From Caldilineaceae bacterium (lineage in GTDB: Bacteria > Chloroflexota > Anaerolineae > Caldilineales > Caldilineaceae): a stretch of DNA of 64,000 nucleotides. Position 1 is the first letter of the stretch. Every line of letters starts with the position of its first letter. Positions 43,707 through 49,288 of this stretch are shown here, in pieces. The notes under the pieces were generated by a model that worked only from the letters and a program-made list of their open reading frames with translations, was not told the DNA's origin and did not search any database. The stretch covers positions 3,745,838-3,809,837 of the forward strand of contig OZ242384.1 of assembly GCA_965208965.1 (NCBI GenBank), in the 5' to 3' direction. Position numbers and translations under genes: made by a program.

Positions 43707-44807
43707 TCAGACCGGGCTGATCTCCCGGCAGCGCTCCAGAATCTCCACCTGCCGCCGCACACTGGCCGCCGAAATCGCCGCTTGTTCCCCTGTGCGGATG
43801 GTCGTAAAGATGTCCTCATAGAGACTGAACATGCCCGTGAAGAAATTGAACTCGGGCGTGAAAGTCTCCTCTTTCCAGGGCAGCGTTTCGCTGTTGTAGC
43901 TGCGGTCCGGGGTCGGCTTCGTGTCCAGCACGAGCGGCGGCGCCTCTTCCGGATCGAAATACTTCCAGTTGACCGTGCGCCGGTCCGCGCTCACGAGCGT
44001 CCCCTGCGTTCCCATCACCAGCCACGCGTCCTGCGGATAGGCGCAGCAGTTGGTCATCTCCACGTCGATGACAGGTCCGTCGTTCGGCTTGATGACCAGC
44101 TTGACGTGGCTCTCCGCGTCCCCGGCAAACAGGGGCGTCGTCTCCATCTGGCAGAAGATCTCCGGGTTGGGATCGTCGAAAAAGTGAATCGCCCAGTCGA
44201 TTGAGTGAGCACCCTTGTTGTTCAGGTCCCCGCCGCCGTATTTCTTGAGCGTCTGCCAGTCCCAGCGCCTGCGAAAGCCGTTGCCGGTAATCCGCATCTG
44301 CACGATGCGACCCAAGACGCCTGAATCGACCACCTCCTTCACCTTCAGGAAGTCGGCGTGATAGCGGTAATTCTGATTGACGGTCAGAAGCATCCCCGTC
44401 TCTTCGGCCACTGCGATCATTTCGTCAACACCGGCCAGAGTAGGTGCCATCGGCTTCTCGACAATGACATGCTTCCCGGCCTGCATCGCCGCGGAAGCGT
44501 CGCTCACGTGCAGCTGGCTGGGCGTTGCGACGACGAGCAGCTCCACTGCCTTGTCGGCGATGATCTCATCGATGTCTGAGTAGGCCAGGCAGTCAAACCG
44601 TTCAATCGCCTCCTCCTGGCGGGCGGAATCCGGATCGCATACCGCCGTGACTCTGAACTTTTCACCGATCTGGGCCAGGACGTTTGCGTGGATGCCCCAG
44701 CCGCTTCGACCCAATCCGCTGATTCCGATTCTCAAGGGCTCGTCCGAGGTTCCGGTCTGAGTACCGTTGCCCGTTTCCATGCCACTCTTCGGCGTAGACT
44801 CTGCCAT
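43707..44807 (-). CDS. Gfo/Idh/MocA family oxidoreductase
   Basis: LRIGISGLGRSGWGIHANVL...VVATPSQLH...VIVEKP. AAAGGAAG RBS before ATG 44807. Confidence 0.9.
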   Translation of the reverse strand: MAESTPKSGMETGNGTQTGTSDEPLRIGISGLGRSGWGIHANVLAQIGEKFRVTAVCDPDSARQEEAIERFDCLAYSDIDEIIADKAVELLVVATPSQLHVSDASAAMQAGKHVIVEKPMAPTLAGVDEMIAVAEETGMLLTVNQNYRYHADFLKVKEVVDSGVLGRIVQMRITGNGFRRRWDWQTLKKYGGGDLNNKGAHSIDWAIHFFDDPNPEIFCQMETTPLFAGDAESHVKLVIKPNDGPVIDVEMTNCCAYPQDAWLVMGTQGTLVSADRRTVNWKYFDPEEAPPLVLDTKPTPDRSYNSETLPWKEETFTPEFNFFTGMFSLYEDIFTTIRTGEQAAISAASVRRQVEILERCREISPV

Positions 44808-45040
44808 GTCAGGCTTCCTTTCTGCGAGTGATTAGTACGGCCAAGAGGCGTTCGGGCTTTCAAACGCCGCCAAACCATTTGGTTCTGAGGTGGAGTGAAT
44901 GTCATGCTACAATGGCCATTCGGACATCCGCACAAGCATAGCAGAAAGTCCGTTTAAGTCGTAAAGTCGCAAGCCTAATGTTGCCCGTCTGGCTATTTTC
45001 ATTCGGAGGTCAAGAGAGTTCCTGTTTTTCCTTTCTCCCC

Positions 45041-45370
45041 TGTAACGCTCGTAAACGCTTGTAGACTCTCATAGACTCTCGTGCGAGAATTTCAGTACCT
45101 TGTGCAACACTCGTAAGCGCTCGTAAATCCACTAAGAAATATCGTGTGCACCCTTGGAGCCCTTTGCAACACTCGTAAACACTTGCAGACTCTTGTGGGA
45201 CAGTTTTGGTCTTTGCAGCACCTGTCGTAAACGCTCCCAAACTCCAAGGGAATCGCGCTCGACAGGCCTGGCGACTTGTGCGACGCCCGCATACTGTTGC
45301 AGGCTCCCGTGGGACACCAGTAGTACCAGGAGGAACGCTTGCAGACTCTTGTGCTCTCTTGTGAGCGGTC
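45041..45370. repeat. degenerate tandem repeat with a 10-bp sub-period and a ~62-bp higher-order period
   Basis: Consecutive decamers include gtaaacgctt / gtagactctc / atagactctc / gtgcgagaat, then tcgtaagcgc / tcgtaaatcc, then actcgtaaac / acttgcagac / tcttgtggga, then gcagactctt / gtgctctctt / gtgagcggtc. caacactcgtaa recurs at 45105 and 45167. Confidence 0.65.
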
Positions 45371-46105
45371 GCGATGCGCTATTGACATCAAAGGAAAATC
45401 GTTAGCCGGGCCAATTGAACCATGTTGCGTTAAACTCTTTGGAGGTTGTCCGAAATGAAGGAGCAGGCCTTGGACCTGCCCACGCAAGTAGATGCACTTT
45501 TGCCTCAAATCATCTTTCCATTCTCTCAGTTGAGGCGCTAATGGAACAGGGGGTCCCCCCAAAAACGTGCCAAATTGTGCCAAGTCGCGCTTTAATCCTT
45601 CTCCGCTTTCACTGTTGAGTAGTTGAATCGCAAGGCTCGCTGACGCTCGTCAGAAGAGCAGTTTGCGGGACCAAACAGCCCGTCCGCGCAAGGCCCCGGC
45701 AGTCTCGCCGGTAAAGTCCGATACGCTTCATGTGTTCTTCGAGGCATTACGAGTCGCTTTCCGCATCGAAGAGTGTTGCTCTGCCTCGCCGCACGGTTCG
45801 CCGAAGTCTGAAATCGCATAACGTAGCTGCCAAACCATTAGATGCTTCTGCGCTGACCGTTTCAGGCACTGCAGCGGTCAATGGGTTTTGGGCTGAGAAA
45901 ACATGAGGGCTAGCAGGCCGGACCAAGGCCCGCCCAGGGACCCGAACTCGCCGGTCGCGCCAAACCTGGACTTGCCTGCAGGGACAAAAGCCGCTACGGC
46001 GAATCAGGCGAGTTGGTATATAATCCAGGCGTGTACGACTTGAATGGCCTTCCTGTAGACTTGGCGTGGACCGCCAACCAAGCGGCTGCATTCTAGACGG
46101 TGCCA

Positions 46106-47650
46106 ATGCGTTTCTCAGTCCTGCTGATCTCCTGCTACGAACTCGGCCATCAGCCTCTCAGCCTGGCTTGGCCGTTGGCCGCACTCCGGGAAGCCTCCCT
46201 TGACGCCGCAGCTGCCGATCTGGCCGTCGAGGAGTTTCCAACCGGAAAAGCGGCCGGCGCCGACCTGATCGCCATTGCCGTACCCATGCACACTGCGCTG
46301 CGCATCGGCGTGGACGCGGCCCGGAAGGCGCGCGCAGCGAATCCCGACGCCCACCTCTGCTTCTTCGGCCTCTACGCCTGGCTCAACCGCCAATACCTGC
46401 TGCAACTTGACGGCAGCAAGGGGCCGATCGCCGACTCGGTTGTCGCCGGTGAAGCGGAGCCAGTCCTGGTCGCGCTGGCAAACGCCCTGCTCGCAGGCAA
46501 GCAGGCAGCAGATGTCCCCGGTCTTACCACGCTCAACAATGAGGCATCACCTCATCTGGGGCGGCACTCTCTGCCGCTTCCGGATCGAACATCGTTGCCC
46601 TCCCTGGACAACTATGCCCATTACGTTCCAGGCTCGTCTTCAGACCCCGAGGGGATGTCAACGGGCAACGGTGAACGGGTAGAAGATCCGGTCGCCTACC
46701 CGGCCGGCTATACTGAGGCCAGCCGCGGCTGTCTACACACCTGCCGCCACTGTCCGGTCGTGCCCGTTTACAATGGCCGCTTTTTCGTGGTGCCCGTCGA
46801 AACCGTTCTCGCCGACATCGCCCAGCAGGTCGAGAACGGCGCCCAGCATATCACTTTCGGTGACCCGGACTTTCTCAATGGTCCCGGCCACGCCCGCAAA
46901 GTAGCCAGAGCCCTCAATACCGCCTTCCCCCATGTCAGCTTCGATTTCACAGCAAAGGTGGAACACCTGCTCAAGCATCGCCGGCTCTTGCCGGAACTGG
47001 CTGAGCAAGGCGCATCATTCGTCGTCTCTGCCTTCGAGTCAACCAGCGAACATGTTCTCTCCCGCCTCCAAAAAGGCCACACACGCCAACAGATGGAGGA
47101 GGCCCTGGCCATCGTGGAGGAAGCAGGCCTCTCGATCCAACCGACCTGGATGCCCTTTACACCCTGGACCAGCCTGGACGACTATCTCTTTATGCTGCAA
47201 TGGATCCGTGACCAGGGCCTGATAACGCAAGTACCCGCTGTGCAGCTCTCGATTCGGATGTTGGTTCCCCCAGGGAGCGCCCTACTCTCCGAAGAAGACA
47301 CTGAGGCATGGCAGGGAACGCTCGACGCGCCAAACTTCACTTTCCAATGGCAGCACCCGGACCCGCGCATGGACGCGCTCCAGCAACAGGTAGCGCGCAT
47401 CGCCGAAATGGCGGGCCAGTATGAAGCCGAAGGTTCGTCCGGCGCCGGCGGAGGAAACCTGCCGGATCCGGTCGGAGACGCGGCCAGTCCATACGCTGTA
47501 TTCCATCGCATCCAATGTGCCGCTCACAGTGCCGCCGGTCGCCCGGCCCCCGTTTTGCCGCCTCTCTCCTCCTACATTCCCCGGCCGCCTCGCCTGACCG
47601 AGCACTGGTTCTGCTGAGCGGAGCCCACCGCCGACCAGTTGGCCGGCTGA
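46106..47650 (+). CDS. radical SAM protein with C-terminal C-U-A-E-P tail; selenocysteine candidate at TGA 47615-47617
   Basis: MRFSVLLISCYELGHQP is a B12-binding-like N-domain pattern. The CX3CX2C cluster is RGCLHTCRHCPV. After ...EHWFC, the TGA is followed in frame by GCG GAG CCC (A E P) plus 7 codons to TGA 47648-47650. Start is ATG 46106 (GTG 46100 is possible). Confidence 0.7.
47630..47647 (+). promoter_or_regulatory. candidate bacterial SECIS hairpin
   Basis: GCCGACC-AGUU-GGCCGGC forms 6 bp plus one A.C mismatch. The tetraloop has G at position 2. It starts 12 nt after the UGA. Confidence 0.4.
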
Positions 47651-47659
47651 AATGAACGC

Positions 47660-49288
47660 ATGAACGACCGTTCCACAGCTGAAGGTATCCTGTTTACCGA
47701 TCAGTATCACCTGACGATGGCGCAGCTGTACTTTCGCCTTGGGATGCACGAACGGCAGGCCCAGTTCGACCACTTCTTTCGAAACTACCCGGACTACGGC
47801 GAGCACAGGGCCGGCTTCTGCGTAAATGCCGGGCTGGAATGGCTGCTGGATTGGATGGAGGAAGCCCGTTTCGGCGAGCGGGAAATCTCGCTGTTGCGGG
47901 GCATGACCTCCCGTAGCGGACGCCGGCTTTTTGACGAAGACTTCCTGTCCTGGCTGGGCGAAAACGGTGACTTCAGCGGCATCTCGATTCAGGCAGTTCC
48001 CGAAGGGCGGGTCGTACATGCCCACGTGCCTCTGACCGTTGTGAACGGCCCTCTTGCCCTGGCACAGATCCTGGAAACACCGCTGCTGAACATTCTCAAC
48101 TACCAGACGCTCATCGCTACCAAGGCAGCCCGCGTTCGTGAGAGCGCCGGCGACGCGCTGGTGCTCGAGTTCGGCGTGCGCCGCGCGCATGACCGGGGCG
48201 GCAATGCCGGAACGCGCGCGGCACTGATCGGCGGCGCCGACTTCTCCTCCAATGCCGGCGTCTCGCACATGCTGGGCTACCCCCCCAAAGGTACGCACGC
48301 CCACTCCCTCGTACAGGCCTTCCTGGCACAGGGCATGACCGAGCTCGACGCGTTTCAGGCGTACGCCGATATCTATCCGGACGAATGCCTGCTCCTCGTC
48401 GATACGATCGATACGCTGGAGAGCGGTGTGCCCAATGCGATTCGCGTTTTCGAAAGGCTGAGGCGGAAAGGGTATGCGCCCGTGGGCGTGCGCCTTGACT
48501 CAGGCGATCTCGCCCGGTTGAGTACGCGTGTTGCTCAAATGCTGGATGAAGCCGGCTTTCCCAACGCGTCGATTGTGCTCTCCAATGAACTGGATGAATT
48601 GAGGATTCGGGACATCAGGTTACAGATCGTTCGCGATGCGAAGGAGAGTGGACTGGATGCCGACAGTATTATCAACCGTCTCGTTTACGGGGTGGGTACC
48701 CGCCTGGTCACTTCGGCGGGAGACAGTTCACTGGGCGGCGTCTACAAGCTGGTCGGTCTGAAAGTGGATAAGACTTGGAAGCCGGCGATAAAGGTCTCGG
48801 AGGATCCCGGCAAGACGGCGATCCCCGGTAACAAGCGGGTATGGCGCATCGTCGACGCTCGCGGCCTGGCTGCCGCCGACCTCCTAACGCTCAACGAGGA
48901 GGACCCGGCCGGCGAGTGGCAGAGCGGATGCAGCCGGAAGAGCCCTGCGGACCGGCCGTACGGCTTCGACTTCCATCTGCTCCATCAAAGTCATATGTAC
49001 CAGCGTCGGAGCATGCCCTTCGCGAGCATCTCCGGCATTGAGCCGCTGCTGACTGACGTGCTGACGGCAGGGCGACTCGTGTACGAAAGGCCTTCTTTGG
49101 AGGCGATCCGGGCCTCACGCCAGGCGGACGTGGCCGAACTTGATGAAAAGGTACGCAGGCTGATTGATCCTAAACCGTACAATGTCGCCGTCAGCGAGAG
49201 CCTGTGGGCGCTGCAGGAGAAGCTTCTGCACACGTATCGACCGGCAGGGCTGGCCCGAATTCTTGACCAACCACCCTCACATCGATAG
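47660..49288 (+). CDS. pncB: nicotinate phosphoribosyltransferase
   Basis: ILFTDQYHLTMAQLYFRLGMHERQAQFDHFFR... and GTHAHS motif. ATG 47660 lies 10 nt after the extended radical SAM stop. Confidence 0.9.
   Translation: MNDRSTAEGILFTDQYHLTMAQLYFRLGMHERQAQFDHFFRNYPDYGEHRAGFCVNAGLEWLLDWMEEARFGEREISLLRGMTSRSGRRLFDEDFLSWLGENGDFSGISIQAVPEGRVVHAHVPLTVVNGPLALAQILETPLLNILNYQTLIATKAARVRESAGDALVLEFGVRRAHDRGGNAGTRAALIGGADFSSNAGVSHMLGYPPKGTHAHSLVQAFLAQGMTELDAFQAYADIYPDECLLLVDTIDTLESGVPNAIRVFERLRRKGYAPVGVRLDSGDLARLSTRVAQMLDEAGFPNASIVLSNELDELRIRDIRLQIVRDAKESGLDADSIINRLVYGVGTRLVTSAGDSSLGGVYKLVGLKVDKTWKPAIKVSEDPGKTAIPGNKRVWRIVDARGLAAADLLTLNEEDPAGEWQSGCSRKSPADRPYGFDFHLLHQSHMYQRRSMPFASISGIEPLLTDVLTAGRLVYERPSLEAIRASRQADVAELDEKVRRLIDPKPYNVAVSESLWALQEKLLHTYRPAGLARILDQPPSHR

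What the first reader, a model, noticed from the sequence alone, without database searches (positions are those of the whole stretch)
46106..47650. Radical SAM gene reads through an in-frame UGA to give a C-U-A-E-P tail: selenoprotein candidate truncated in the ORF track
Seen:
- The track ends the 505-aa ORF at TGA 47615-47617, after …TEHWFC.
- The next in-frame codons are GCG GAG CCC ACC GCC GAC CAG TTG GCC GGC TGA, so the tail would be C-U-A-E-P-T-A-D-Q-L-A-G.
- A hairpin GCCGACC-AGUU-GGCCGGC (47630-47647) begins 12 nt after the UGA, and its apical loop has G as second base.
- The extended ORF ends 10 nt before the pncB ATG. Without the extension the spacer is 42 nt.
- The protein has the CX3CX2C cluster (CLHTCRHC) and a B12-binding-like N-domain.

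Knowledge, from memory:
- RefSeq has a family named CUAEP/CCAEP-tail radical SAM (seleno)protein, whose members end with Cys-Sec/Cys-Ala-Glu-Pro near the C-terminus. Its function is unknown.
- Bacterial SECIS elements are hairpins starting about 11 nt after the UGA, with a G in the apical loop.

Inference: UGA 47615 encodes selenocysteine.
Basis: partly seen in the sequence, partly recalled or inferred. Interest (0 to 1): 0.8.

Follow-up and report, generated by a model that had tools for sequence, protein, structure and literature searches.

The report
Selenocysteine-tailed radical SAM enzyme gene
The apparent stop codon near the end of this radical SAM enzyme gene almost certainly encodes selenocysteine, which makes the gene a correctly spotted but database-truncated member of an already catalogued selenoprotein family whose chemistry is still unknown.

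Summary

- **Family:** The ORF (ATG 46106) reaches TGA 47615-47617 after ...TEHWFC, continues in frame as AEPTADQLAG and ends at TGA 47648-47650. With the tail it scores 636 bits against NCBIfam NF040546 (CUAEP/CCAEP-tail radical SAM (seleno)protein, cut-off 500).
- **Codon column:** In 81 homologous loci from at least six phyla this column is TGA 63 times, TGC/TGT 18 times, never TAA or TAG. The real terminators use all three stops.
- **Tail:** A-E-P-T-x-x-Q is conserved with third-position wobble in Sec and Cys forms alike.
- **Hairpin:** All 59 distinct Sec forms carry a hairpin 12-13 nt after the UGA with an AGUU(N) loop. Six of seven pairs covary, and Cys forms mostly lack it. The window's copy meets the published bacterial SECIS criteria but is not significant alone.
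- **Not verified:** selA, selB, selD and tRNA-Sec are absent from the 64 kb, and the rest of the genome could not be reached.
- **Relatives and novelty:** The nearest characterised relative is ArsL (32-34% identity). In other phyla the gene sits beside YggX or Nfu and an ATP-grasp ligase, but not here. This is a new member of a known kind, and its function is open.

The parts
46106..47650 (+). Full coding sequence of the CUAEP-tail radical SAM selenoprotein: 514 residues, Sec at residue 504, including the true stop codon. The ORF track's GTG 46100 is an alternative start two codons upstream.
   Evidence: NF040546 636.4 bits against a cut-off of 500, profile positions 1-467 of 468 aligned once the tail is included. 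N-terminal alignment with homologues favours MRFSVLLISCYELG. Sequence read.
46106..46540 (+). N-terminal Rossmann-like (cobalamin-binding-domain-like) domain. Boundaries are approximate.
   Evidence: AlphaFold2 model of the Cys-form homologue P0040 (pLDDT 87.4, pTM 0.88) has beta/alpha repeats at residues 6-143. Foldseek top hits are AprD4, TsrM, OxsB and MgmA with TM 0.55-0.65. There is no Pfam B12-binding hit in this protein.
46730..46753 (+). CX3CX2C radical SAM [4Fe-4S] motif CLHTCRHC (Cys209, Cys213, Cys216 counted from ATG 46106).
   Evidence: Read. Pfam PF04055 E = 9e-11. The three Cys are invariant in alignments A1, A3 and A4.
47615..47617 (+). In-frame UGA read as selenocysteine (residue 504), directly after Cys503. 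Together they form the C-U dipeptide.
   Evidence: The column is TGA 63, TGC 13, TGT 5, TAA 0, TAG 0 in 81 loci. 117 of 120 database homologues are called as ending ...WFC and 2 read ...WFCCAEPT. TGA is an ordinary stop for 17 other large ORFs of the window.
47618..47647 (+). Translated tail AEPTADQLAG (residues 505-514).
   Evidence: [A/S]EPTxxQ[L/F] is conserved in Sec and Cys forms. Variability after the UGA is concentrated at third codon positions, as it is before it. Within Caldilineaceae 6 of 30 sites vary (0/2/4 by codon position), against 8 of 9 in the spacer after the second stop.
47630..47647 (+). SECIS hairpin: 5' arm 47630-47636, loop AGUU 47637-47640, 3' arm 47641-47647, with an A.C mismatch at 47634/47643. 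The loop starts 19 nt after the UGA.
   Evidence: MFE -9.2 kcal/mol in context. It meets the bSECIS criteria quoted in PMC13188914. All 59 distinct Sec forms have a hairpin at this offset, with mean dG -11.4 against -7.1 kcal/mol in 18 Cys forms, p = 1.3e-5. Six of 7 pairs show compensatory changes, 0 of 500 shuffles reach the observed covariation, and slid controls are much lower. The loop G (third base of CAG) is kept in 58 of 61 Sec forms but is CAG 11 / CAA 5 in Cys forms.
47648..47650 (+). True terminator (TGA), directly after the 3' arm of the hairpin.
   Evidence: True terminators across the Sec-form loci are TGA 32, TAA 19, TAG 11.
47660..49288 (+). Context: nicotinate phosphoribosyltransferase gene, co-directional, 9 nt after the true stop. 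Not part of the selenoprotein itself.
   Evidence: NF006695 552.9 bits against a cut-off of 469. The 9-nt spacer length is conserved in all 10 Caldilineaceae loci although 8 of its 9 bases vary. The synteny rSAM-NAPRTase-MiaB-Na/Ca exchanger is kept in L001 and L002.

Best explanation
Window 46106-47650 encodes a 514-residue radical SAM enzyme of the CUAEP/CCAEP-tail family (NCBIfam NF040546) from a Caldilineaceae (Chloroflexota) bacterium.

Recoding. UGA 47615-47617 is not a stop. It is decoded as selenocysteine, which gives the C-terminus ...TEHWF-C-U-AEPTADQLAG. Recoding is directed by a bacterial SECIS hairpin inside the last codons of the gene (47630-47647, loop AGUU). That hairpin would recruit SelB carrying Sec-tRNA(Sec) to the ribosome paused at the UGA. 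Translation then ends at TGA 47648. Gene callers, including those behind most public records, truncate the protein at the Cys.

Shown here:
- family membership;
- a Sec/Cys column that never holds TAA or TAG;
- translation-type conservation of the tail;
- a covarying hairpin specific to the UGA forms.

Inferred: that SelB and tRNA-Sec carry out the decoding in this organism.

Enzyme chemistry (inference, about 0.35). The protein is the sister family of ArsL. ArsL cleaves SAM to methylthioadenosine plus a 3-amino-3-carboxypropyl (ACP) unit and transfers that unit to As(III) held by its Cys-rich C-terminal tail. By analogy, the flexible Cys-Sec tail here would hold a soft metalloid or chalcogen atom, or act as a redox or relay arm, at the [4Fe-4S]/SAM site. 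In other phyla the product, probably an unusual amino acid, would pass to the adjacent ATP-grasp (L-amino-acid-ligase-like) enzyme, and an adjacent YggX or Nfu protein would service the iron-sulfur cluster.
For: Family:
- NF040546 scores 636.4 bits (cut-off 500) end to end, and ArsL NF040542 is second at 279.6 bits.

Sec/Cys column:
- The 81 loci count TGA 63, TGC 13, TGT 5, with no TAA or TAG, while the true terminators are TGA 32, TAA 19, TAG 11.
- Among diverse 50%-identity representatives, 39 end at W[FY]C and 44 read W[FY]CC[AS]EP.

Translated tail:
- [A/S]EPTxxQ is conserved in both forms.
- After the UGA the variability is concentrated at third codon positions, for example Pro CCC 23, CCG 21, CCA 12, CCT 5.
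- In the Caldilineaceae clade the tail varies at 6 of 30 sites, against 8 of 9 in the following spacer and 31 of 60 in the upstream coding sequence.

SECIS:
- All 59 Sec forms fold a hairpin at the same offset, and Cys forms are weaker (p = 1.3e-5).
- 82% of cells are paired, 6 of 7 pairs are compensatory, and 85 cells are changed on both sides against 34.5 +/- 5.2 in shuffles. Zero of 500 shuffles reach this, and the signal collapses when partners are slid.
- The loop G and the GCG after the UGA are constrained only in Sec forms.
- The window's hairpin meets all four published bSECIS criteria.

No code reassignment:
- 17 other large ORFs of the window stop at TGA.

Prior knowledge:
- NF040546 is named as a CU-motif selenoprotein.
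- Chloroflexi are documented to have tRNA-Sec, SelB and selenoproteins.
- selD lies next to the gene cluster in L026 and L074 and 8 kb away in L072.

Chemistry:
- The protein is 32-34% identical to bona fide ArsL over the whole core, and the CC/CU dipeptide aligns.
- The ArsL tail binds As(III), and ArsL makes the ACP radical or an Fe-C species.
- Neighbours over 81 loci are YggX 23, Nfu 17 (mutually exclusive), ATP-grasp/LAL 31, formyltransferase-like 16, DUF169 11 and ATG22-like MFS 7.
Against: Recoding:
- No selA, selB, selD or tRNA-Sec is present in the 64-kb window or in the 10-kb flanks of any Caldilineaceae locus. The machinery could not be sought in the rest of the genome.
- The window's own hairpin is weak (A.C mismatch, -9.2 kcal/mol) and not significant alone.
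- The covariation shuffle control ignores phylogeny, and the hairpin lies in coding sequence.

Chemistry:
- The protein fails the ArsL cut-off and lacks the RCCLKC tail with its third Cys.
- An ArsM-like gene is nearby in only 1 of 81 loci.
- None of the conserved partner genes (YggX, Nfu, ATP-grasp, DUF169) occurs in this window or in any Caldilineaceae locus.
- The tail is modelled with low confidence.
- Nothing here distinguishes ACP-type from canonical 5'-deoxyadenosyl chemistry.
Confidence: 0.9

Rival explanations
1. UGA 47615 is read through and the tail is made, but not by the Sec pathway. For example, a near-cognate Cys or Trp tRNA could suppress it, stimulated by the downstream hairpin, so that residue 504 is Cys or Trp rather than Sec.
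For: The Sec machinery was not found in the window or in the flanks of any Caldilineaceae locus. The comparative evidence shows that the tail is translated and that the hairpin matters. It does not show which amino acid is inserted.
Against: - The column alternates only with Cys codons, the classic Sec/Cys signature.
- The hairpin has the geometry and the G-U loop of bacterial SECIS elements, and its loop G is constrained only in UGA forms.
- The family is curated as a selenoprotein.
- selD is adjacent in some loci.
- Sec decoding is documented in Chloroflexi.
- Leaky suppression would not be expected to keep UGA fixed in 63 of 81 loci across several phyla.
Confidence: 0.05
2. UGA 47615 is the real stop and the protein ends at ...WFC. 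The conserved downstream sequence is then a non-coding RNA element, such as a stem-loop controlling mRNA stability or translation of the next gene (pncB).
For: The hairpin ends 12 nt before the pncB start codon and the spacing is conserved in the clade. All gene callers stop at the UGA.
Against: - The same tail is read as protein in 18 Cys-form loci.
- Variation after the UGA sits mainly at third codon positions and is mostly synonymous.
- A true stop would sometimes be TAA or TAG, but 0 of 63 are.
- The downstream gene differs between phyla while the tail and hairpin stay.
- The NF040546 profile aligns through the tail.
Confidence: 0.03
3. [quoted passage not shown] It may be cobalamin-dependent, like its structural neighbours. 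The Cys-Sec tail would be a redox-active selenenylsulfide or hydrogen-atom/electron relay, analogous to the GCUG tail of thioredoxin reductase, and not a metalloid-binding site.
For: - The fold is closest to the Rossmann-plus-rSAM class (AprD4, TsrM, OxsB, MgmA).
- The motif is the canonical CX3CX2C.
- Only two chalcogen ligands sit in the tail, against three in ArsL.
- There is no arsenic-gene context.
- Sec is typically used in redox catalysis.
Against: - The closest sequence relative by far is ArsL, at 280 bits. The next family scores 34 bits. ArsL has the same canonical motif yet performs ACP chemistry.
- This protein has no Pfam B12-binding hit.
- CU motifs in other bacterial selenoproteins cluster in metal and organometallic systems.
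Confidence: 0.3
4. The TGA is a sequencing or assembly error or a recent nonsense mutation, so the gene is a pseudogene.
For: None beyond the single sequence.
Against: The same TGA occurs in 63 independent assemblies from several phyla, with the tail and hairpin intact.
Confidence: 0.01

Closest known systems
CUAEP/CCAEP-tail radical SAM (seleno)protein, NCBIfam NF040546
   Same: It passes the curated cut-off end to end (636 against 500 bits). It has the CX3CX2C motif and the C-U-A-E-P tail. The family is already described as a CU-motif selenoprotein of unknown structure and function.
   Different: Nothing defining differs. This Caldilineaceae subclade has the shortest tail (10 residues after Sec) and a 4-nt loop variant of the hairpin. 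Its context is pncB-miaB, and it lacks the YggX/Nfu and ATP-grasp partners seen in other phyla.
ArsL, arsinothricin-biosynthesis radical SAM enzyme (RCCLKC-tail family, NF040542)
   Same: It has the same domain architecture and is 32-34% identical over the whole core. Both carry a vicinal dichalcogen (CC or CU) in a C-terminal tail, and the two align. In ArsL the tail binds the As(III) substrate.
   Different: - It scores below the ArsL cut-off (280 against 450 bits).
- The tail is C-U-A-E-P and not R-C-C-L-K-C, so there are two ligands rather than three.
- There is an extra helical insert of about 60-80 residues before the tail.
- The cluster motif is CxHxCxHC, against CxxxCTYC in ArsL.
- There is no arsM/arsQ context.
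- The substrate and the mode of SAM cleavage are unknown.
Bacterial SECIS elements (E. coli fdhF type; consensus model of Zhang and Gladyshev as summarised in PMC13188914)
   Same: It is a stem-loop within the coding sequence just after the UGA, with a small apical loop carrying G then U at its second and third positions. The loop starts 19 nt after the UGA (allowed range 16-37), and the MFE is at or below -7.5 kcal/mol.
   Different: No Rfam family matches it. The hairpin occupies the very last codons and abuts the true stop. The family consensus loop AGUU(N) and the near-invariant GCG after the UGA are family-specific features.
C-terminal Cys-Sec or Cys-Cys swinging tails of flavoprotein disulfide reductases (thioredoxin reductase GCUG, mercuric reductase CC). 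Cited from general knowledge, not tested here.
   Same: A vicinal Cys-Sec or Cys-Cys pair on a flexible C-terminal extension carries electrons or a soft metal ion to a buried active site.
   Different: The enzyme superfamily is unrelated. No evidence here shows that this tail moves or is redox-active. The resemblance is a lead only.
Rossmann-domain-containing ('class B', cobalamin-type) radical SAM enzymes: AprD4, TsrM, OxsB, MgmA
   Same: The overall two-domain fold matches (Foldseek E about 1e-16 to 1e-14, TM 0.55-0.65).
   Different: Sequence identity is only 14-17%. The window protein has no Pfam B12-binding hit, and no solved structure is detectable by sequence. As I recall it, and not shown by any search, AprD4 has this fold without using cobalamin. 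The fold therefore does not imply B12 use.

Membership tests
NF040546 CUAEP/CCAEP-tail radical SAM (seleno)protein | Whole-protein HMM score at or above the curated cut-off (500 bits), aligned end to end | tested here: met
   636.4 bits. Residues 7-515 align to profile positions 1-467 of 468, with U written as C.
NF040546 CUAEP/CCAEP-tail radical SAM (seleno)protein | C-terminal C-[U/C]-A-E-P motif | tested here: met
   TGC TGA GCG GAG CCC at 47612-47626. The same motif is found in 81 loci.
NF040546 CUAEP/CCAEP-tail radical SAM (seleno)protein | Radical SAM CX3CX2C cluster motif | tested here: met
   CLHTCRHC at 46730-46753. PF04055 E = 9e-11.
Bacterial selenoprotein (UGA decoded as Sec) | In-frame UGA aligned with Cys in homologues and never with another stop codon | tested here: met
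   TGA 63, TGC 13, TGT 5, TAA 0, TAG 0. Among representatives, 39 are Sec-type and 44 Cys-type.
Bacterial selenoprotein (UGA decoded as Sec) | Sequence downstream of the UGA conserved as protein-coding | tested here: met
   The tail is conserved in both forms. Variability is concentrated at third codon positions. Within the clade, 6 of 30 tail sites vary against 8 of 9 in the spacer.
Bacterial selenoprotein (UGA decoded as Sec) | bSECIS hairpin: loop 3-9 nt, stem 4-16 bp, G in the first two loop positions followed by G or U, 16-37 nt from the UGA, MFE at or below -7.5 kcal/mol | tested here: met
   Loop AGUU, 6 pairs plus one A.C mismatch, 19 nt from the UGA, -9.2 kcal/mol. Supported by covariation and the Sec-versus-Cys contrast. 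Not significant as a single sequence.
Bacterial selenoprotein (UGA decoded as Sec) | selA, selB, selD and tRNA-Sec present in the same genome | not testable with these tools
   They are absent from the 64-kb window and from the flanks of the Caldilineaceae loci. Only phylum-level literature support exists.
Bacterial selenoprotein (UGA decoded as Sec) | Selenium shown in the polypeptide | not testable with these tools
   This needs 75Se labelling or mass spectrometry.
ArsL (NF040542, RCCLKC-tail radical SAM) | HMM score at or above the cut-off (450 bits) | tested here: not met
   279.6 bits. Genuine ArsL representatives score 516-656 bits.
ArsL (NF040542, RCCLKC-tail radical SAM) | C-terminal RCCLKC motif with three As(III)-binding Cys | tested here: not met
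   The tail is F-C-U-A-E-P.
ArsL (NF040542, RCCLKC-tail radical SAM) | Gene context with arsM and arsQ | tested here: not met
   None in the window. An ArsM-like gene occurs in 1 of 81 loci.
ArsL (NF040542, RCCLKC-tail radical SAM) | Cleaves SAM to methylthioadenosine plus the ACP radical | not testable with these tools
   This is a biochemical assay.
Cobalamin-dependent (class B) radical SAM enzymes | N-terminal Rossmann-like cobalamin-binding-type domain | tested here: inconclusive
   The fold is present. There is no Pfam PF02310 hit in the window protein, though some homologues carry a precomputed one. Cobalamin binding cannot be tested here.

The most novel reading that the evidence does not exclude
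The CUAEP family would be a second, far more widespread branch of ArsL-like non-canonical radical SAM chemistry. The Cys-Sec tail would hold a soft atom (As, Sb, Se or Te), and the enzyme would attach the 3-amino-3-carboxypropyl group of SAM to it, forging a carbon-metalloid or carbon-selenium bond. The resulting unusual amino acid would then be built into a peptide by the adjacent BacD/DdaF-like ATP-grasp ligase. YggX or Nfu would repair the iron-sulfur cluster that carries the organometallic intermediate. That would amount to an unrecognised family of organometalloid natural products in Chloroflexota, Acidobacteriota, Nitrospirota, Methylomirabilota and others.
Probability: 0.25. Interest if true: 0.8.

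Novelty: new member of a known kind. Interest (0 to 1): 0.4.

Why it matters
For annotation:
- The gene is truncated by 11 residues, including its two most distinctive ones.
- The same truncation affects almost every public copy I looked at: 117 of 120 close homologues. That includes NCBI records that already carry the family name.
- A 2026 catalogue of prokaryotic selenoprotein families does not list the family.

For biology:
- The Sec form is unusually frequent. It makes up 78% of the sampled genome loci and about half of the diverse representatives.
- The family is spread over several soil and sediment phyla, including largely aerobic ones. This implies strong selection for selenium at this one position.
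- Its only characterised relative, ArsL, performs a rare reaction in which a C-terminal thiol tail holds the substrate atom.
- The conserved partners found here (an iron or Fe-S helper and an amino-acid-ligase-like enzyme) make the function experimentally approachable.

What this instance adds: it adds no new principle. It is a clean, well-supported example of a known family.

Tried and rejected
1. Sec machinery.
- ARAGORN and Rfam found no tRNA-Sec in the window or in 60 related loci.
- tblastn with E. coli SelA, SelB and SelD found nothing in the window. It found selD only in L026, L072 and L074.
- I looked for a Chloroflexota selD on plasmids or chromids to use as a closer probe and found none.
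- The literature gave only phylum-level statements.

2. A scan of the window for other ORFs split by one in-frame TGA gave 39 candidates. These are dominated by shadow ORFs and same-frame neighbours in this high-GC DNA. I abandoned it as uninformative.

3. Rfam at a permissive threshold over 44700-47800 gave no hit. The simple promoter and terminator scan gave nothing useful for this gene.

4. An arsenic context was rejected. An ArsM-like gene two genes from the rSAM gene in L028 looked promising but occurs in only 1 of 81 loci.

5. The invariant N-terminal Cys (LLSCYELG) as a third ligand replacing ArsL's third Cys was rejected. It is Thr in most of the wider family.

6. Sequence search of the PDB found no relative.

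I modelled the natural Cys-form P0040 instead. The tool returns no coordinates, so the distance from the tail to the cluster could not be measured, and the tail has low confidence.

8. Genome-wide UGA reassignment was rejected.
Full report
**1. What is in the sequence**

The + strand ORF listed as 46100-47617 (505 aa from GTG) ends ...CTG ACC GAG CAC TGG TTC TGC TGA. The TGA is at 47615-47617. Reading on in frame gives GCG GAG CCC ACC GCC GAC CAG TTG GCC GGC TGA, that is A-E-P-T-A-D-Q-L-A-G and a second stop at 47648-47650.

- The CX3CX2C motif CLHTCRHC is at 46730-46753.
- The next gene starts at ATG 47660 and is a nicotinate phosphoribosyltransferase (NF006695, 553 bits against a cut-off of 469).
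Without the extension it would be 42 nt.
- Alignment of N-termini favours ATG 46106 as the start (MRFSVLLISCYELG...). That gives a 514-residue protein with Cys503 and Sec504.

**2. Family**

With the tail included (U written as C) the protein scores 636.4 bits against NCBIfam NF040546, 'CUAEP/CCAEP-tail radical SAM (seleno)protein'. The cut-off is 500 bits and the alignment covers profile positions 1-467 of 468. The second-best family is ArsL (NF040542) at 279.6 bits, below its cut-off of 450. All other families score below 35 bits. Pfam sees only Radical_SAM.

The closest database proteins come from Caldilineaceae and other Chloroflexota. Of the 120 best, 117 are called as ending exactly at ...WFC and two read ...WFCCAEPT.... 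The truncated ones include NCBI records that already carry the family name.

**3. Is the UGA a stop?**

I fetched 80 homologous loci from the genome collection and two through exact-protein look-up. They cover Caldilineaceae, other Chloroflexota, Blastocatellia/Acidobacteriota, Nitrospirota, Gemmatimonadota, Methylomirabilota, Planctomycetota and others.

| Test | Result |
|---|---|
| Codon in the column after ...W-[F/Y]-C | TGA 63, TGC 13, TGT 5, TAA 0, TAG 0 |
| Genuine terminators further down in the TGA loci | TGA 32, TAA 19, TAG 11 |
| Sequence after the column | [A/S]-E-P-T-x-x-Q-[L/F] in both TGA and Cys forms |
| Tails among 150 representatives (50% identity) | 39 end at W[FY]C, 44 read W[FY]CC[AS]EP, 4 are ArsL-type (KRCC[LI]KC) |
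| Other large ORFs of the window ending in TGA | 17 |

- Per-site variability after the UGA is concentrated at third codon positions, as it is before the UGA and in the Cys forms. For example, codon +3 is CCC 23, CCG 21, CCA 12, CCT 5.
- Because TGA is an ordinary stop elsewhere in the window, the genetic code is not reassigned.

Within the Caldilineaceae clade alone (10 loci, 69-95% protein identity) the variable sites are:

| Stretch | Variable sites |
|---|---|
| 30-nt tail | 6 of 30 (0/2/4 by codon position) |
| 9-nt spacer after the second stop | 8 of 9 |
| 60 nt of coding sequence before the UGA | 31 of 60 |

The tail is therefore translated in this lineage. A plain stop, a pseudogene and an assembly error are all excluded.

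**4. The hairpin**

On its own the window's hairpin is unremarkable. It spans 47630-47647, with stem GCCGACC/GGCCGGC, an A.C mismatch and loop AGUU. The z-score is -0.98, and 149 of 2000 dinucleotide shuffles fold at least as well. Comparison with homologues changes the picture.

- All 59 distinct TGA-form sequences fold a hairpin at the same offset. The loop is AGUU, or AGUUN with the 3' arm shifted by one base.
- Mean folding energy is -11.4 kcal/mol, against -7.1 for the 18 Cys forms (Mann-Whitney p = 1.3e-5).
- On the ungapped alignment, 82% of cells pair and six of seven pairs show compensatory changes.
- 85 cells are changed on both sides, against 34.5 +/- 5.2 in shuffles. Zero of 500 shuffles reach the observed score, and all measures collapse when the 3' partners are slid by 1-3 columns.
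- Two positions are constrained only when the codon is TGA. The third base of codon +7 (the loop G) is CAG in 58 of 61 Sec forms but CAG 11 / CAA 5 in Cys forms. Codon +1 is GCG in 50 of 61 Sec forms but 8 of 18 Cys forms.

The Cys forms keep the same peptide motif without the hairpin. The pairing is therefore selected at the RNA level and not as a by-product of the protein sequence.

A 2026 review gives these bacterial SECIS criteria: loop of 3-9 nt, stem of 4-16 bp, G in the first two loop positions followed by G or U, 16-37 nt between UGA and loop, MFE at or below -7.5 kcal/mol (PMC13188914). The window's element has loop AGUU, 6 pairs plus a mismatch, 19 nt spacing and -9.2 kcal/mol. All four criteria are met. 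No Rfam family matches.

**5. What could not be shown**

- The window holds no tRNA-Sec and no selA, selB or selD (tblastn with the E. coli proteins). The 10-kb flanks of the Caldilineaceae loci hold none either.
- selD does lie beside the gene cluster in L026 (a Cys form) and L074, and 8 kb away in L072.
- Published work documents SelB, tRNA-Sec and selenoproteins in Chloroflexi, but not specifically in Caldilineae.
- I could not reach the rest of this genome or the complete Caldilineaceae chromosomes. An attempt to get a closer probe failed.

The identity of the inserted residue therefore rests on the Sec/Cys column, the SECIS-type hairpin and the family's curated status. It does not rest on the machinery.

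**6. What the enzyme may do**

*Fold.* An AlphaFold2 model of the natural Cys-form homologue P0040 is confident (pLDDT 87.4, pTM 0.88). It shows an N-terminal Rossmann-like domain and a radical SAM barrel, and confidence is low in the last 15 or so residues. The nearest solved folds are AprD4, TsrM, OxsB, MgmA, CysS, TokK and MiaB, with TM about 0.5-0.65. No PDB relative is detectable by sequence. 'B12-binding-like' is therefore a fold statement only.

*Nearest relative.* By sequence this is ArsL, at 32-34% identity over the whole core. ArsL's R-C-C aligns with this family's F-C-[C/U]. This family has an extra insert of about 60-80 residues before the tail.

*What ArsL does.*
- It cleaves SAM to methylthioadenosine and a 3-amino-3-carboxypropyl unit, as a radical or an Fe-C species.
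- It joins that unit to As(III).
- Its C-terminal cysteines bind the arsenic and are needed for product formation but not for SAM cleavage.

Haft's preprint notes that CU motifs are rare and cluster in metal and organometallic systems. It lists NF040546 as uncharacterised.

*Neighbours of the gene over the 81 loci:*

| Neighbour | Loci |
|---|---|
| YggX (oxidative damage protection / Fe trafficking), immediately upstream on the same strand | 23 |
| Nfu-type Fe-S carrier, nearly always immediately downstream | 17 |
| YggX or Nfu (never both) | 40 of 81 |
| ATP-grasp enzyme with an L-amino-acid-ligase C-domain, weakly BacD/DdaF-like | 31 |
| Formyltransferase-like gene | 16 |
| DUF169 | 11 |
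| ATG22-like MFS transporter | 7 |
| ArsM-like gene | 1 |

None of these partners is in this window or in any Caldilineaceae locus. There the gene sits in a conserved rSAM-pncB-miaB-Na/Ca-exchanger arrangement.

My best guess, at about 0.35, is ArsL-like chemistry on an atom held by the Cys-Sec tail. The main alternative is canonical radical chemistry with the tail as a redox or relay arm. Neither can be decided here.

**7. Verdict**

- Its inference that UGA 47615 encodes selenocysteine is supported at about 0.9. The one untested condition is the Sec machinery.
- The family and its selenoprotein status are already curated, so this is a new member of a known kind.
- Three things lift it above routine: near-universal truncation in public records, absence from a recent selenoprotein catalogue, and an unknown function next to a very unusual characterised relative.

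Noticed in passing
window 44808-46099: A 1.3-kb stretch with no convincing ORF lies between the divergent GFO/IDH/MocA oxidoreductase gene and the rSAM gene. GC drops to 0.48-0.55. It contains a degenerate direct-repeat array (45041-45359, about 9 copies of a unit like TGCAACACTCGTAAACACTTGCAGACTCT, spacing 10/52/62). There is no Rfam match. The same gap varies from 0.8 to 2.5 kb in close relatives L001 and L002.
   Followed up: partly
window 47641-47662: The 3' arm of the SECIS hairpin abuts the true stop, and the pncB ATG follows after exactly 9 nt. That spacer length is conserved in all 10 Caldilineaceae loci although 8 of its 9 bases vary. pncB translation may be coupled to ribosomes that have read through the UGA and melted the hairpin. 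This was not tested.
   Followed up: no
L065:11375-11420 (Thermogemmatispora carboxidivorans), also L042 and L044: A Cys-form (TGT) homologue still carries a strong SECIS-like hairpin at the usual offset (-15.3 kcal/mol, the strongest of the Cys forms). It looks like a fossil of a recent Sec-to-Cys replacement. L042 and L044 keep partial remnants.
   Followed up: partly
L011-L081, flanks of the rSAM gene: An iron or Fe-S helper sits next to the gene in 40 of 81 loci. It is either YggX (23 loci, always immediately upstream on the same strand) or an Nfu-type protein (17 loci, nearly always immediately downstream), never both. An ATP-grasp/L-amino-acid-ligase-like gene is present in 31 loci. In Nitrospirota the order is rSAM-DUF169-ATP-grasp with gaps of 10-16 nt.
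   Followed up: partly
L026:3995-4912 and L074:4-261: selD lies divergently next to the ATP-grasp-rSAM pair. In L026 the rSAM is a Cys form, so selD there is not explained by this gene needing Sec.
   Followed up: no
L031, L046, L065 tails; protein P0121: Several Cys-form proteins have a longer tail with a second Cys-Cys pair 13-17 residues after CCAEP, for example ...CCAEPSAEQFERIAGGRSGCCST....
   Followed up: no
L028:7318-8127 (- strand): A Cys-rich SAM methyltransferase resembling arsenite methyltransferase ArsM lies two genes from the rSAM gene in this one groundwater Chloroflexi contig. It is not seen in any of the other 80 loci.
   Followed up: yes
L018, L035, L057, L066, L074 (record titles): Some MAG labels (Patescibacteria, Clostridia, Enterobacteriaceae, Nitrosotalea) do not fit the content of these contigs. 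Their rSAM tails and neighbours closely match Chloroflexota, Blastocatellia or Nitrospirota loci. For example, the L057 DUF169 and ATP-grasp proteins are 88% and 77% identical to those of Nitrospira L059. These contigs are probably mis-binned.
   Followed up: no
proteins P0002, P0005, P0053, P0055, P0118: [quoted passage not shown]
   Followed up: yes
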